Positions 9,682-42,956 of a stretch of DNA of 43,044 nt are shown in pieces. The translations under genes and the position numbers were made by a program. The notes beneath the pieces were generated by a model, which saw only the letters and a program-made list of their open reading frames with translations, was not told the DNA's origin and searched no databases. This DNA is from a virus. Its lineage: Duplodnaviria; Heunggongvirae; Uroviricota; Caudoviricetes. Within the stretch, counting starts at the first letter, position 1. The number at the start of each line of letters is the position of its first letter. The stretch spans positions 1 through 43,044 of the IMG/VR virus record IMGVR_UViG_2711768052_000001. The stretch is one strand, 5' to 3'.

Positions 9682-11009
9682 TGTCCGTTCCTGTAAATGA
9701 GTTTCTGACCAGTTTTAGGGTTCGTTGCCGTCGCGCCTTCTGATATCCCACTTGGCGCAGCTTTTGTCTGCCCATTACCACCTTGTGGTGTAGGCTGCGC
9801 TGGGACATCGTCAAATAGCTTGGCCTTCCTTCTCCCTAAGCTTTTTTTCAGCCCCTGAGGAATAGTATCTCCATACGTATCCAGATATTCGTCTACCTGC
9901 TGGTTAAACTGCTGCCCCATAGCGTTGGCGTTAATTTTTGCTGCGTTAACAATGTTATCCCTCGCTTCCTGTGACAAGCCATTCCCTGCATTAAGCTGGT
10001 CTACATATCCTTTTATCTGCCCCCATATGCCATCAGAGCGCATGACCTGAACCTGTTCACCTTCGCGAACAACTGACTGAGGGTCGAGAGACTTCATGTA
10101 ATTAAAGATAATCCCAAGTTGGGCAGCGCCAGTATTTACCTTGCTAAGGGCTTGCAGAGAGTTTGCCGCCGCTCTGACAGAGTTATAATTTTTGCCAAAA
10201 TTGGTAATGTCAGAATTTAATCCCTTAATTAAGTCTGCTGACGGCTTACCTTTTTGCCCCAGCTCCATTAGCTTCAATCCCATCTCATCTGAGTGCATTT
10301 GTGCCCGCTGAGCCCTGTCTAGTTGAGCGTTCTGGATATTTGCCCATCCTCTCGCATTCTCCATGTCAGCCTGACGGATGCTTTCATCCAATCGCCCTTT
10401 CTCAAGTTGGCGACCAACCATCTTATCCTGAACAGCAAACGCCTTTTCTGGTCCAAGCGCACCGAGAGACATAGTAGTCAGCATGTGTGATAGCTGCTCT
10501 GGATTCTGAATACCTGTCTGAATCATCCAGTCAGCATTCGCCCCCACGCGATTTAACCTGTCCTTGTTGTCAGTAATGAATTTACTGTAGGCTTCCGGTC
10601 CCTGAGAAAGAGCGACGTTAGCCCTCATGGCTAAATCGCCCATATCGTTGCGTTGCTGATCATTAAGACCGGAAAACGCCTGTTGTGCCTGTGCAACAAA
10701 CGCTGGATTTTCCTGGGCAAACTTAAATAGTCCCGATGGATCACCAGAAGCCCATGCATCAGCGTGAACCTTATTGAACGCACTAATAGCTTTCTGTTGC
10801 TGTTCCTGATTGTAAATATCAGCAACTCCAGCCAGACCACGTAACGCGGTCAGGCCAACGTTATTTGCACCTGAGCGAGCCAGTTCATTGTTTTCGCGGA
10901 TCATACCAAGCGTTGCGTTAATGTCGCTTGCCTTTGGCGCATTCTCATTTTGCGTACCGATGCCAGCCAGAAAACCACCAGAATTAATACCCTGTTGCCA
11001 CGTAGCCAT
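9666..11009 (-). CDS. DNA ejection protein, P22 gp20-like (447 aa)
   Basis: Position and size in the conserved P22/Sf6 ejection-gene block. Confidence 0.85.
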
Positions 11010-41088: not shown

Positions 41089-41298
41089 ATGGCTATTGCC
41101 GCAAGTTACACCATGCATCTCTATTGTGATTGCCTCCAGTGTACAGATGGCAAATATAAGTCGCCAGACTTCGGTGAGTATATCGGTACGTCATGGGCTG
41201 GCTGTGCAAAAGAGGCGCGCAAGGATGGCTGGCGAATAAGCAAAGACAAAACGCGTGCTTTTGCGCCCGGGCATAAAGTTTTGAGGATTAACAAATGA
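41089..41298 (+). CDS. Hypothetical Cys-rich protein (69 aa)
   Basis: AAGGAG SD; CDC..C cysteine cluster. Confidence 0.5.
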   Translation: MAIAASYTMHLYCDCLQCTDGKYKSPDFGEYIGTSWAGCAKEARKDGWRISKDKTRAFAPGHKVLRINK

Positions 41299-41912
41299 CC
41301 ACTTTAACCGACAAAGAACTGATTAAAGAAATCAAAGAGCGAATCGGCAGCCTGGACGTGCGAGACGATATTGAGCGCCGTGCTTATGAAATCGCACTGG
41401 CATCGCTGGAAGCAGAGCCAGTGGCGTGGAAGACAACTTTCACGCAAATTGGCCATGAATGTAATACGTACACCGTTACGTATTTTGACAAAGCAGAAGC
41501 TGAGCGGTGGGTACATATTCATAATATAACAGGTGAGTTTCGTGCTGAAGTGGTGCTATTTTATACAGCCCCACCCGTGTCAATTGTGCAATTGCCGTTT
41601 GAGCAATGGCTGGAACAGCAGCGCGAAAAAATCGAGGTTGATTGCGGATGCGTGAGCACTGAAACGCTCATGCACTGGATGAGGATGGCGTATGAGGCGG
41701 GCGACTCTCCGGTAACTCCGGATGGTTGGATAAGCTGTAGTGAGCGAATGCCGGATAAGTTAATTCCGGTAATGGTCATGTATGAAGACGGTGAGATGTG
41801 GTCTGCAATGTGGAATGGCAATCGCTGGGATGATGGCACCGAATATCCGGATCCGCACTCAGTTACGCACTGGCGTGAAATGCCAGCAGCACCGCAGCAG
41901 GAGGTGAAGTGA
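41295..41912 (+). CDS. Hypothetical protein (205 aa) with a C-terminal DUF551-like region
   Basis: C-terminal W...P...VTHWREMP pattern resembles the phage DUF551 family as recalled; N-terminus paralogous to ORF 40575..41087. Confidence 0.6.
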   Translation: MTTLTDKELIKEIKERIGSLDVRDDIERRAYEIALASLEAEPVAWKTTFTQIGHECNTYTVTYFDKAEAERWVHIHNITGEFRAEVVLFYTAPPVSIVQLPFEQWLEQQREKIEVDCGCVSTETLMHWMRMAYEAGDSPVTPDGWISCSERMPDKLIPVMVMYEDGEMWSAMWNGNRWDDGTEYPDPHSVTHWREMPAAPQQEVK

Positions 41913-42403
41913 TGGACTCCTTCGCGAAATATACGATTATTGACTGGATAGCATTCCTTCAGGTTTTGCTCATCTGGTTTTATATGGCTTACAGGAGTGG
42001 GCAGTGGATTGTCAGTGTAGCCTGTAGCAAGGGATGGCGTTGGTGGAACCGAAAGAATAAAAAAGCGCTGGCCTTGGATTCGTTTTACGAAGCATTCAAT
42101 CTTAACAGCCTTCAGCCTGGTTCTGTCATTGTAGTCACCACTCAAAGCGGCATGACCATTCAGATTCATAAACCAAAAGAGGAAAAATTATGTGGCCTAT
42201 ATGTGTTAATTGCGGACGGATGTGCCTATCTGGATGGTGCCGAAAGTGCGACAAATGCACGAAGAAAAGACAATAACAATCCTCGCACTCGCGGGGATTT
42301 CTTTTATCTGAACTCGCTACGGCGGGTTTTGTTTTATGGAGATGATTATGGTCTGTTCAACATTCAACCCTCTAACGTTACAGAAATACCAGCCAGACCC
42401 TGA
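41912..42403 (+). CDS. Hypothetical protein (163 aa) with N-terminal hydrophobic segment
   Basis: AGGAGGTGA SD; overlaps alternative-frame ORFs in its 3' half (see findings). Confidence 0.45.
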   Translation: MDSFAKYTIIDWIAFLQVLLIWFYMAYRSGQWIVSVACSKGWRWWNRKNKKALALDSFYEAFNLNSLQPGSVIVVTTQSGMTIQIHKPKEEKLCGLYVLIADGCAYLDGAESATNARRKDNNNPRTRGDFFYLNSLRRVLFYGDDYGLFNIQPSNVTEIPARP

Positions 42404-42647
42404 AGATTTATGCTCACTGTGTGGCGGAAATCATGGTAAAGCCGCCATGATTGAATGTAAGGACAAAATCCACATTTGCCTTAATTGCGTTGATGTCCTC
42501 GTTGATATCAAAAATGAGAGAGAAGATAAAAAGCGTAGCGAGACTGTTCGCGCCTTAGATTCATGGATGCGAGATGGGTATAGTGCTGCGCAAATTTATG
42601 ACTTAGCAATATCAAAAGGCGAAATACCAGGATTGCGCATCGAATAA
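42348..42647 (+). CDS. Hypothetical protein (99 aa) with two CxxC pairs (possible zinc ribbon)
   Basis: ORF 42336..42647 trimmed to Met5 (GGAG 6 nt upstream); CSLCGG...CLNCVD. Confidence 0.45.
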   Translation: MVCSTFNPLTLQKYQPDPEDLCSLCGGNHGKAAMIECKDKIHICLNCVDVLVDIKNEREDKKRSETVRALDSWMRDGYSAAQIYDLAISKGEIPGLRIE

Positions 42648-42688
42648 GACGTAACCAATATTCGAATTGAAGAAATGAAAGAACACCA

Positions 42689-42714
42689 AGCCGCCTGATG
42701 GCGGTTTTTTATTG
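42689..42714 (+). terminator. Rho-independent terminator at the end of the PL-operon accessory genes
   Basis: gccgcc-tgat-ggcgg hairpin followed by ttttttatt. Confidence 0.6.
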
Positions 42715-42720
42715 CCTGAT

Positions 42721-42736
42721 TTGCAGGTTCGATTCC
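42721..42736. other. 16-nt tRNA-Arg T-arm-like sequence (ttgcaggttcgattcc) inside the prophage, about 300 bp from attR
   Basis: Matches the T-arm portion of the argW-type 3' end immediately 5' of the att core, but is followed by unrelated sequence. Confidence 0.3.
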
Positions 42737-42755
42737 CTATTCGGAGATAGCACTC

Positions 42756-42956
42756 ATGCAACACGAACTACAACCTGATTCACTGGTTGATTTGAAATTC
42801 ATCATGGCCGATACTGGCTTCGGTAAAACCTTCATTTATGACCGGATTAAGTCCGGCGACCTGCCTAAAGCCAAAGTTATCCACGGGCGAGCAAGATGGT
42901 TATATCGTGACCATTGTGAATTCAAAAATAAGCTCTTAAGCCGCGCCAATGGGTAA
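42756..42956 (+). CDS. alpA: AlpA-family transcriptional regulator / excisionase-like protein (66 aa)
   Basis: ...IMADTGFGKTFIYDRIKSGDLPKAKVIHGRARWL: phage AlpA-type HTH; last gene before attR, upstream of int across the att junction. Confidence 0.8.
   Translation: MQHELQPDSLVDLKFIMADTGFGKTFIYDRIKSGDLPKAKVIHGRARWLYRDHCEFKNKLLSRANG

What the first reader, a model, noticed from the sequence alone, without database searches (positions are those of the whole stretch)
41912..42647. Overlapping coding potential at the right end of the PL operon, including a 28-codon Cys-rich micro-ORF with a strong SD
The 163-aa ORF (41912..42403) overlaps a 28-codon ORF (about 42190..42276, MWPICVNCGRMCLSGWCRKCDKCTKKRQ, six Cys in a zinc-ribbon-like spacing, AGAGGAAAA SD) in another frame, and the start of a 99-aa CxxC protein (42348..42647). 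Not all three can be conventional genes over the same DNA; either the long ORF is shorter than called or there is genuine overlap.
Basis: seen in the sequence. Interest (0 to 1): 0.45.

Follow-up and report, generated by a model that had tools for sequence, protein, structure and literature searches.

The report
Lost stop codon masks conserved microgene
The apparent three-way gene overlap comes from a single base change that removed the stop codon of an ordinary 92-codon phage gene. The 28-codon cysteine-rich ORF it now runs over is a real, conserved and almost never annotated phage microprotein gene.

Summary
All three ORFs exist exactly as described. The 163-codon ORF is a 92-codon DUF4752 gene that has lost its stop. 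All 93 related loci I could read have TGA at 42188-42190; this window alone has TTA (T at 42189). The 71 extra codons match no family. They run through the micro-ORF, two terminator-like hairpins and the start of the next gene, and they are not conserved.

The micro-ORF (42190-42276) is a genuine gene:
- Intact 24-29-codon versions (MWPICxxCGRxCxxxWCxKCDK) occur in at least six unrelated phage contexts, including virulent siphoviruses and a 154-kb myovirus.
- Each has a Shine-Dalgarno sequence, and the start usually overlaps the upstream stop (UGAUG).
- pN/pS is 0.27 in its own frame, against 1.9 and 1.2 in the other two.
- Five Cys are invariant; the sixth is not.
- Only phage HK106 annotates it (gp30, hypothetical). 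PGAP, Pfam, PHROGs and NCBIfam lack it.

The 99-codon gene (42348-42647) is also real (Sf6 gp19 / 933W L0063 family).

So there is no conserved dual coding. The canonical layout is DUF4752, coupled microgene, tandem terminators, then the 99-aa gene. The microprotein is probably a minimal zinc ribbon; its target is unknown.

The parts
41295..41912 (+). Upstream DUF551 gene (205 aa). Its stop TGA (41910-41912) overlaps the DUF4752 ATG by 1 nt. The junction GCAGCAGGAGGTGAAGTGATG (41894-41914) carries the SD AGGAGG.
   Evidence: Pfam DUF551 E 1e-17. Sequence. The same junction precedes the micro-ORF itself in L079 and L085.
41912..42187 (+). Conserved body of the DUF4752 gene (92 codons), a small protein with an N-terminal transmembrane helix.
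   Evidence: Pfam PF15944 122 bits, residues 8-91. phrog_667 residues 1-92. 92 aa in 77 of 93 relatives and in the PGAP, Kapi1 and HK106 annotations. TM helix 9-27 is noted in the Kapi1 record.
42188..42190 (+). Codon 93. It reads TTA here and TGA (stop) in every relative. The variant base is T at 42189. In relatives this TGA overlaps the micro-ORF ATG (UGAUG), and G42189 also completes an extra upstream ATG (ATGATG).
   Evidence: Alignment A1. 60 of 60 and then 93 of 93 loci have G. No E. coli complete genome is 100% identical over 42176-42280; the best is 99.0%, one mismatch.
42188..42403 (+). Read-through extension of DUF4752 (71 codons plus TGA). It is private to this window and not a conserved coding sequence.
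   Evidence: No family match beyond residue 92. pN/pS is 1.9 in this frame. The extension frame length in relatives varies from 35 to 88 codons, and mosaic joints and 1-nt indels fall inside it. It crosses two terminator-like hairpins.
42179..42182 (+). Shine-Dalgarno GAGG of the micro-ORF, 7-nt spacer.
   Evidence: Sequence. Every distinct upstream context of the family has a GGAG/GAGG/GGGG run 6-10 nt before the ATG.
42190..42276 (+). Microgene encoding the 28-aa Cys-rich MWPIC microprotein, a probable minimal zinc ribbon.
   Evidence: tblastn hits in lambdoid and unrelated virulent phages. Intact 24-29-codon ORFs in at least six contexts. pN/pS 0.27. 13 invariant residues. Annotated as HK106 gp30.
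42278..42309 (+). Terminator-like hairpin 1 (stem-loop 42278-42299 plus T-rich tail). It starts 2 nt after the micro-ORF stop.
   Evidence: Scan. RNA fold -26.4 kcal/mol, z = -4.7 for 42270-42350. Conserved also in Sf6, where the upstream gene differs.
42310..42339 (+). Terminator-like hairpin 2 (stem-loop 42310-42329 plus TTTTGTTTT). The G/A polymorphism at 42326 keeps pairing (U-G or U-A).
42348..42647 (+). 99-aa CxxC...CxxC protein gene (Sf6 gp19 / 933W L0063 family, phrog_3680). SD GGAG at 42338-42341. The ATG at 42336 has no SD.
   Evidence: phrog_3680 E 2.5e-68 aligns residues 5-103 of the 103-aa form to profile positions 1-99. PGAP aa. The modal length of homologues is 99 (788 members), against 103 (28 members).
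42688..42707 (+). Third terminator-like hairpin, after the 99-aa gene.
42756..42956 (+). TorI-like excisionase, the last gene before the attachment site. It marks the end of the operon.
   Evidence: phrog_66. Annotated as excisionase or TorI in Kapi1, Sf6 and E. coli 1008S19.

Best explanation
The ancestral and family-wide layout has four units with no dual coding:
1. A 92-codon DUF4752 gene.
2. A 28/29-codon microgene whose AUG overlaps the DUF4752 UGA (UGAUG; AUGA for the extra first AUG) and which has its own SD. It can therefore be translated by termination-reinitiation coupling as well as by direct initiation.
3. Two tandem intrinsic-terminator-like hairpins.
4. A 99-codon CxxC protein gene with its own SD.

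In this window one substitution (G to T at 42189) turned the DUF4752 stop TGA into TTA. The frame happens to stay open for 71 more codons, which creates the 163-codon ORF and the apparent three-way overlap. The same base change removes the optional first AUG and the stop/start coupling. It leaves the family-conserved AUG (42190), the SD and the whole microprotein intact.

Shown here: the stop-loss is private, the extension is not conserved, and the micro-ORF frame is under purifying selection in many unrelated phages.

Inferred: the microprotein binds a metal, most likely Zn2+, through C5/C8 and C17/C20 as a minimal zinc ribbon, with invariant C12, W2 and W16 packing or serving as an alternative ligand. 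It probably acts as a small accessory (moron-like) early protein that binds a host or phage partner. In this window, ribosomes that read through DUF4752 probably lower or alter translation of the microgene and of the 99-aa gene.
For: Stop-loss:
- The alignment with Kapi1 and Dewey shows TGA against TTA.
- 60 of 60, then 93 of 93 related loci from IMG/VR, metagenomes, phage and E. coli records have G.
- 183 E. coli complete genomes carry the segment. The best identity is 99.0% and none is identical.
- DUF4752 and phrog_667 cover only residues 1-92. The protein is 92 aa in the PGAP, Kapi1, HK106 and mEp213 annotations.

Extension not coding:
- pN/pS is 1.9 in its frame.
- The open length after the TGA varies from 35 to 88 codons among relatives. 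Mosaic joints and 1-nt indels lie inside it.
- It crosses two hairpins with T tails.

Microgene real:
- tblastn finds it at 64-77% identity in virulent phages: C1, S192, KFS-SE2, KFSST1, ST1UNAM, ZCEC08, CF-SP1 and Citrobacter Tr1.
- There it is an intact 24-25-codon ORF in an unannotated 90-nt gap, directly after the upstream stop, with an SD.
- A degenerate DNA scan adds more contexts: after a TraR/DksA-type zinc-finger gene, after DUF551 genes, in L075, and in a Kluyvera prophage.
- The 28 distinct DNA versions carry abundant synonymous changes. pN/pS is 0.27 in codons 13-22, which the scan did not constrain.
- 13 residues are invariant, including 5 Cys and 2 Trp.
- The upstream stop overlaps the ATG by 1 nt in 13 of 17 contexts examined.
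- HK106 gp30 (YP_007151700.1) is this ORF with the ATGA overlap.

Zinc-ribbon inference:
- The motif is CxxC-x8-CxxC.
- The best, non-significant PDB matches are zinc ribbons such as Rpc2 VCDKCGLMGYSGWCTTC.
- An AF2 single-sequence model has pLDDT 80 with beta-bridges.
- The best, non-significant Foldseek matches are all Zn mini-domains.
Against: - Codon-usage log-odds favour the read-through frame (+0.13) over the micro-ORF frame (-0.52) on the same DNA. The whole extension scores +0.11, between real genes (0.37 +/- 0.12) and off-frames (-0.70 +/- 0.30). I attribute this to the Cys/Trp-rich composition, but it is not positive support.
- Some annotators called other frames there: mEp213 gp28 in the read-through frame and Dewey CDS0021 in the third frame.
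- A few loci carry damaging changes in the microgene: C20R, C20Y, a frameshift in L078 and a stop-loss in L077.
- The homologues were found by protein-level or codon-level searches, which favours finding conserved copies.
- There is no expression, metal-binding or phenotype evidence.
- No zinc-ribbon model reaches significance.
- Whether T42189 is a real mutation or a base-calling error cannot be decided from the sequence.
Confidence: 0.85

Rival explanations
1. Base-calling or assembly error. The true base at 42189 is G, so the genome has the canonical 92-codon DUF4752 gene, no long ORF and no overlap. This changes nothing about the gene model, only whether the stop-loss is biological.
For: The T is unique among 93 related loci and 183 E. 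coli genomes. A single-base difference is all that is needed.
Against: The window differs from its nearest relatives at several other sites in the same 521 nt (best identity 98.8%), so private substitutions are expected. Accessory ea-region genes tolerate damage. A G-to-T substitution next to a homopolymer is not the typical indel-type error.
Confidence: 0.2
2. Genuine overlapping genes. A long DUF4752 isoform, or a separate gene in the read-through frame such as mEp213 gp28, is functional alongside the micro-ORF. Relatives would make it by UGA read-through, which this window has hard-wired.
For: The frame is open for 71 codons here. Its codon-usage score is intermediate (+0.11). mEp213 gp28 is annotated in the same frame.
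Against: pN/pS is 1.9 in that frame over the shared DNA. The open length after the TGA ranges from 35 to 88 codons, because downstream modules differ and intergenic 1-nt indels occur. The frame runs through two terminator hairpins. There is no family match beyond residue 92. Non-lambdoid contexts have unrelated upstream genes.
Confidence: 0.03
3. The micro-ORF is a regulatory leader-type ORF, not a functional protein. What matters is a ribosome stopping 2 nt before hairpin 1, which would modulate termination ahead of the 99-aa gene, xis and int.
For: The stop TAA (42274-42276) is 2 nt from hairpin 1. In the virulent siphoviruses and in L079, L084 and L085 a terminator also follows within about 6-15 nt.
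Against: In the TraR-linked contexts the micro-ORF is followed directly by another gene with no terminator. Thirteen residues are invariant and pN/pS is 0.27, which selection on translation alone would not produce. The two roles are not mutually exclusive.
Confidence: 0.08
4. The micro-ORF is conserved as nucleic acid (an RNA or DNA element), and the ORF is incidental.
For: Within lambdoid phages the segment is 96-100% identical, so selection cannot be read there.
Against: Across contexts the DNA is about 70% identical with variation concentrated at third positions (entropy 0.54, 0.70 and 1.12 for positions 1, 2 and 3). Codon switches include TGC/TGT, GAC/GAT and CGN/AGA. The ORF length, start, SD and stop are preserved. 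No Rfam search was run on it.
Confidence: 0.03

Closest known systems
Phage HK106 gp30 (YP_007151700.1, UniRef K7P872), a 29-aa hypothetical protein
   Same: The same gene: MMWPICVNCGRMCLSGWCRKCDKCTKQRQ. It lies directly after the DUF4752 gene with a 4-nt ATGA overlap.
   Different: The window version has lost the first ATG (ATT) and has K26 instead of Q. HK106 has a queuine tRNA-ribosyltransferase-like gene downstream instead of the 99-aa gene. Neither has a known function.
DUF4752 family (Pfam PF15944; phrog_667; ST104 ORF7, Kapi1_004)
   Same: Residues 1-92 of the long ORF are a full-length member (122 bits).
   Different: Members are about 92 aa. This copy carries a 71-residue non-homologous C-terminal extension caused by stop-loss.
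Stop/start-overlap translational coupling (UGAUG / AUGA), as in the E. coli trp operon junctions and many phage operons (established knowledge)
   Same: In relatives the DUF4752 UGA overlaps the microgene AUG. The same 1-nt overlap links the microgene to unrelated upstream genes in 13 of 17 contexts. It also links DUF551 to DUF4752 in the window.
   Different: Coupling has not been measured here. In this window the overlap is destroyed for the microgene, so only SD-dependent initiation remains.
Minimal zinc ribbons or knuckles, e.g. the C-terminal Zn ribbon of RNA polymerase III subunit Rpc2 and the ribosomal proteins L37e and S27e
   Same: Two CxxC pairs 8 residues apart, with a CxxCG...WCxxC signature. 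Predicted beta-bridged mini-fold.
   Different: No significant sequence or fold match (E 0.8-10). A fifth invariant Cys (C12). The protein is free-standing at 24-29 aa. Phage-specific. Metal binding is untested.
Sf6 gp19 / 933W L0063 / phrog_3680 (the 99-aa neighbour)
   Same: The window 42348-42647 ORF is a 96-97% identical member.
   Different: In Sf6 and 933W it occurs without the DUF4752 + microgene module. Function is unknown. Its N-terminal module only weakly resembles the ClpX zinc-binding domain.

Membership tests
DUF4752 (Pfam PF15944) | Score above the Pfam gathering threshold over the whole domain | tested here: met
   122 bits against a cutoff of 27. Residues 8-91 match profile positions 2-84 of 84.
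DUF4752 (Pfam PF15944) | Single-domain protein of about 92 aa ending at the conserved stop | tested here: not met
   The window reads TTA where 93 of 93 relatives read TGA, so the ORF runs to 163 codons.
Conserved overlapping (dual-coding) genes | Both overlapping frames kept open and under purifying selection in homologues | tested here: not met
   pN/pS is 0.27 in the micro-ORF frame, against 1.9 and 1.2 in the other frames. All relatives have a stop at the overlap entry. The extension length varies from 35 to 88 codons.
MWPIC microprotein family (HK106 gp30-like; no database model) | A 24-29-aa ORF with the invariant pattern M-W-P-I-C-x2-C-G-R-x-C-x3-W-C-x2-C-D | tested here: met
   The window peptide has all 13 invariant residues and is 96% identical to HK106 gp30.
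MWPIC microprotein family (HK106 gp30-like; no database model) | Own SD, and a start overlapping or abutting the upstream stop | tested here: inconclusive
   The SD GAGG is present. The stop/start overlap seen in relatives and in 13 of 17 other contexts is lost here because the upstream stop is mutated.
Zinc ribbon | Two Cys-x2-Cys knuckles on beta-hairpins | tested here: inconclusive
   The CxxC-x8-CxxC pairs are invariant. The AF2 model has pLDDT 80 with beta-bridges. Pfam Zn_ribbon_3 gives E 0.82, the PDB profile gives a best E of 0.83, and Foldseek gives E of about 7 or more.
Zinc ribbon | Stoichiometric Zn2+ binding | not testable with these tools
   Needs the peptide and metal analysis.
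Intrinsic (Rho-independent) terminators | GC-rich hairpin followed by a U tract | tested here: met
   Two sites at 42278-42299 and 42310-42329 with T-rich tails. 5 sites were found in the region against 0.9 expected. Fold z = -4.7. Termination activity was not tested.
ClpX N-terminal zinc-binding domain (Pfam PF06689 zf-C4_ClpX), for the 99-aa neighbour | Score above the gathering threshold | tested here: not met
   15.6 bits against a cutoff of 27. NCBIfam ClpX gives E 0.0018, far below its cutoff. The family profile against the PDB gives E 0.016, with all top five hits being ClpX. This is a resemblance only.

The most novel reading that the evidence does not exclude
The MWPIC peptide is an unrecognised, horizontally mobile phage microprotein family of 24-29 aa with five invariant Cys. 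It is carried by both temperate and virulent enterobacterial phages, and its metal-bound mini-fold targets a specific host machine. It may act together with the recurrently adjacent proteins that share the 'IYDAIAAGKIPGxRIE' C-terminal domain, one of which (the 99-aa neighbour) has a ClpX zinc-binding-domain-like N-terminus. Under this reading the module would be a new type of host-takeover or anti-defence factor that standard annotation pipelines do not call.
Probability: 0.15. Interest if true: 0.65.

Novelty: new member of a known kind. Interest (0 to 1): 0.38.

Why it matters
For this genome, the gene model should be corrected. DUF4752 should be recorded as a stop-loss variant or possible sequencing error, the 28-codon microgene should be added, and the 99-aa gene should start at 42348. 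No dual coding should be claimed.

More generally, the case shows how a single private mutation can mimic overlapping genes. It also shows that codon-usage scoring can prefer the wrong frame when the true product is a Cys/Trp-rich microprotein.

The by-product is a cleanly defined microprotein family. It is present in about 3% of complete E. coli genomes and in unrelated virulent phages, it is under purifying selection, and it is absent from Pfam, PHROGs, NCBIfam and PGAP output. At 24-29 residues it is a tractable candidate for small-protein functional work: it can be synthesised chemically and tested for metal binding and for partners.

Tried and rejected
- phmmer of a 30-aa version against 1.84 billion representative proteins gave only a tandem-repeat artefact, P0043. 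No larger protein carries this module, and the family itself is missing from the library.
- Pfam, PHROGs and NCBIfam scans of the window peptide and of 22 family members gave nothing significant. The best results were phrog_11045 at E 0.02 and C1-like_CT at E 0.037.
- PDB sequence, PDB profile and Foldseek searches gave nothing significant.
- The 90% cluster that holds HK106 gp30 has a 480-aa TolC-like representative. This is a clustering artefact and was ignored.
- The Pseudomonas MAG hit from the genome-contig scan is a chance match inside a 263-aa ORF in another frame. The Bacillus SPbeta tblastn hit (E 6) is noise.
- Full-text searches for 'DUF4752' and for the string 'MWPIC' found no relevant paper.
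- The AF2 model of the 99-aa protein was too poor in the Cys region (pLDDT 56-59) for a fold search.
- An obligatory linkage between the micro-ORF and the 99-aa-type C-terminal domain was tested and rejected. Only 33 of 123 loci have that domain nearby.
Full report
**1. What is in the sequence**

The window end carries, on the + strand, a DUF551 gene (41295-41912) and then three ORFs in three different frames:
- ATG 41912 to TGA 42403, 163 codons.
- ATG 42190 to TAA 42276, 28 codons: MWPICVNCGRMCLSGWCRKCDKCTKKRQ. GAGG lies 7 nt upstream.
- ATG 42348 to TAA 42647, 99 codons. GGAG lies 6 nt upstream. An alternative ATG at 42336 has no SD.

A TorI-like excisionase gene follows at 42756-42956. Upstream lie a repressor, an N-like antiterminator, Erf, SSB, Abc2 and ea-type genes. 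The nearest relatives are Lederbergvirus-type and lambdoid phages: IME10, Kapi1, Sf6, HF4s, CUS-3 and Stx phages.

**2. The long ORF is a 92-codon gene that lost its stop**

Pfam DUF4752 (122 bits) and phrog_667 match only residues 1-92. Nothing matches residues 93-163.

In the alignment with Kapi1 and Dewey the relatives read ...GAA AAA TGA, where the window reads ...GAA AAA TTA. The only difference at that codon is T instead of G at 42189.

How widespread is the G?
- I scanned IMG/VR and the metagenome collection with the flanking sequence and N at that position. Together with the phage and E. coli records, 93 of 93 loci have G.
- DUF4752 is 92 aa in 77 of those loci.
- In complete E. coli genomes, 183 of 5,426 carry the segment. 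The best identity to the window is 99.0%, one mismatch in 105 nt. None is identical.
- PGAP, Kapi1, HK106 and mEp213 all annotate a 92-aa protein.

The would-be extension is not conserved:
- After the TGA the same frame stays open for anywhere from 35 to 88 codons in relatives. Different modules are joined downstream, and 1-nt indels occur in the spacer.
- The extension runs through two hairpins with T-rich tails at 42278-42299 and 42310-42329. The scan found 5 terminator-like sites against 0.9 expected, and the fold has z = -4.7.
- Sf6 shares the sequence from the micro-ORF stop onward but has a different gene upstream. A mosaic boundary therefore sits in the middle of the 163-codon ORF.

**3. 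The micro-ORF is a real gene**

tblastn of the 28-aa peptide against 50,697 phage records found 30 records. They include the lambdoid relatives. They also include, at 64-77% identity (E from 1e-5 to 8e-3), the virulent siphoviruses C1, S192, KFS-SE2, KFSST1, ST1UNAM, ZCEC08 and CF-SP1 (Deseoctovirus, Skatevirus, Swiduovirus) and the 154-kb Citrobacter myovirus Tr1.

In each of these the match is an intact 24-25-codon ORF. It lies in an unannotated gap of about 90 nt, starts 1-2 nt after (or overlapping) the upstream stop, and has a GGAGG-type SD.

A degenerate DNA pattern for the first 12 codons added further contexts in IMG/VR and a Kluyvera prophage:
- After a ~72-aa TraR/DksA-type zinc-finger gene and before a 'MDYSKLSD...' gene.
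- Directly after DUF551 genes, using the same GCAGCAGGAGGTGAAGTGATG junction that precedes DUF4752 in the window.
- After an unrelated 213-aa gene (L075).

A Pseudomonas hit is a chance match inside another ORF.

Selection was read from the 28 distinct DNA versions. I used codons 13-22, which the pattern did not constrain.

| Frame | pN/pS |
|---|---|
| Micro-ORF frame | 0.27 (pS 0.93) |
| DUF4752 read-through frame | 1.9 |
| Third frame | 1.2 |

- Third-position entropy is about twice that of positions 1 and 2.
- Invariant residues show codon switching (TGC/TGT, GAC/GAT, AAA/AAG).
- Thirteen residues are invariant: M1 W2 P3 I4 C5 C8 G9 R10 C12 W16 C17 C20 D21.
- The upstream stop overlaps the ATG by one base (UGAUG) in 13 of 17 contexts.
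- In DUF4752-linked relatives there is also an extra in-frame ATG, which gives the ATGA overlap annotated for HK106 gp30. The family-wide start corresponds to the window's ATG at 42190.

So the G-to-T change leaves the conserved protein and its SD intact. It abolishes the stop/start overlap.

**4. Annotation status of the microgene**

Exact-sequence look-up shows the 29-aa form exists as HK106_030 / YP_007151700.1 / UniRef K7P872, 'hypothetical protein'. It also appears in a few TPA phage MAGs, mislabelled DUF1244.

Other annotation either omits it or uses the wrong frame:
- PGAP leaves the gap empty in E. coli genomes.
- Dewey annotates a 33-aa TTG ORF in a different frame.
- mEp213 annotates a 79-aa GTG ORF in the read-through frame.

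No Pfam, PHROG or NCBIfam model matches any of 22 family members. No PDB sequence, PDB profile or Foldseek match is significant. phmmer against 1.84 billion representative proteins returned only a repeat artefact. Full-text searches found no paper that mentions the peptide or DUF4752.

**5. What the microprotein probably is**

The invariant C5-x2-C8 and C17-x2-C20 pairs with an 8-residue spacer suggest a minimal zinc ribbon. Three further observations point the same way:
- The CxxCG...WCxxC signature resembles the Rpc2 Zn ribbon VCDKCGLMGYSGWCTTC (E about 1).
- A fairly confident AF2 single-sequence model has pLDDT 80 with beta-bridges only.
- All the best, non-significant Foldseek hits are Zn mini-domains.

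This is inference. The invariant fifth Cys (C12) leaves room for a different metal site or for intermolecular ligation.

The gene behaves as a mobile accessory (moron-like) unit in early or accessory gene blocks. Its target is unknown. I commit to 'metal-stabilised mini-domain that binds a host or phage partner', with moderate confidence in the fold (about 0.6) and low confidence in any specific target.

**6. The 99-codon gene**

It belongs to phrog_3680 (E 2.5e-68), the Sf6 gp19 / 933W L0063 family. The start at 42348 is supported by the SD, by the PHROG alignment (positions 1-99), by PGAP, and by the modal length of 99 aa among homologues (788 member sequences, against 28 for 103 aa). Only its first 56 nt are covered by the read-through ORF.

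**7. Consequences in this window (inferred)**

If T42189 is real, DUF4752 gains a 71-residue unrelated tail. Ribosomes then traverse the microgene start, both hairpins and the SD and ATG of the 99-aa gene, and terminate 53 nt inside that gene. This probably perturbs expression of both downstream genes. If it is a sequencing error, the canonical layout applies. The data cannot distinguish the two. I give about 0.2 to the error.

**8. Caveats**

- Codon-usage log-odds trained on 29 long ORFs of the window score the micro-ORF at -0.52 in its own frame and +0.13 in the read-through frame. The extension overall scores +0.11, where real genes score 0.37 +/- 0.12 and off-frames -0.70 +/- 0.30. Composition-based scoring therefore points the wrong way, and it probably explains the wrong-frame annotations.
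- A few loci carry damaged copies: C20R, C20Y, a frameshift and a stop-loss.
- Homologues were ascertained by protein-level criteria.

**9. Verdict**

The 'overlap' is a private stop-loss, or a base-call error, in an ordinary DUF4752 gene. There is no conserved dual coding. The 28-codon ORF is the valuable part: a conserved, translationally coupled and almost universally unannotated Cys-rich microprotein gene shared by temperate and virulent enterobacterial phages. I class it as a new member of a known kind (small zinc-ribbon-type phage accessory proteins), of moderate interest.

Noticed in passing
window 42348-42647 (residues 20-58 of the 99-aa protein): The N-terminal CxxC...CxxC module resembles the ClpX N-terminal zinc-binding domain, and the top hits are consistently ClpX. 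Pfam zf-C4_ClpX gives E 0.015 (below cutoff), NCBIfam ClpX gives E 0.0018, PDB 2ds7 gives E 0.055, and the family profile gives E 0.016 with all top five PDB hits being ClpX. The AF2 model is poor there (pLDDT 56-59). It may be a phage ClpX-ZBD mimic. This is a lead only.
   Followed up: partly
window 42520-42647; L063 1335-1496; L084 13496-13663; L079 9638-9799: The C-terminal 'KKR..A....IYDAIAAGKIPGxRIE' domain of the 99-aa protein also ends ~200-aa proteins. These lie immediately upstream of the micro-ORF in virulent siphoviruses (blastp E 4e-5) and downstream of it in L084 and L079. The linkage is not obligatory: 33 of 123 micro-ORF loci have the domain nearby.
   Followed up: partly
window 41894-41914; L079 and L085 just upstream of the micro-ORF: The junction GCAGCAGGAGGTGAAGTGATG (end of DUF551, SD, UGAUG) is reused in front of different downstream genes: DUF4752 here, and the micro-ORF itself in L079 and L085. 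It behaves as a mosaic boundary with a built-in coupling signal.
   Followed up: partly
L003 2002-2103 (Dewey CDS0021); L069 1214-1453 (mEp213 gp28): Deposited annotations place hypothetical proteins over the micro-ORF in the two wrong frames. PGAP annotates nothing there. Only HK106 gp30 uses the conserved frame.
   Followed up: yes
L071-L092 group (e.g. L092, oriented 10565-10857): In one set of prophage contexts the micro-ORF is coupled (UGAUG) to a ~72-aa TraR/DksA-type C4 zinc-finger gene and followed by a 'MDYSKLSD...' gene. Two small Cys-rich proteins therefore sit back to back.
   Followed up: no
window 42648-42755: The window lacks the 55-aa lambdap35-like gene that Kapi1, Dewey, HK106 and E. 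coli 1008S19 carry between the 99-aa-type gene and xis. Instead there is a hairpin at 42688-42707 that scores as terminator-like on both strands.
   Followed up: no
protein cluster of P0001/P0002: The 29-aa microprotein is filed in a 90%-identity cluster whose representative is an unrelated 480-aa TolC-like protein. This is a clustering artefact that would hide the peptide from representative-based searches.
   Followed up: yes
L025, L047, L077, L078, L024, L045: Occasional decayed or rearranged copies of the microgene occur: C20R, C20Y, stop-loss to 35 aa, a frameshift, and two recombinant C-termini. This is consistent with a dispensable accessory gene in prophages.
   Followed up: no
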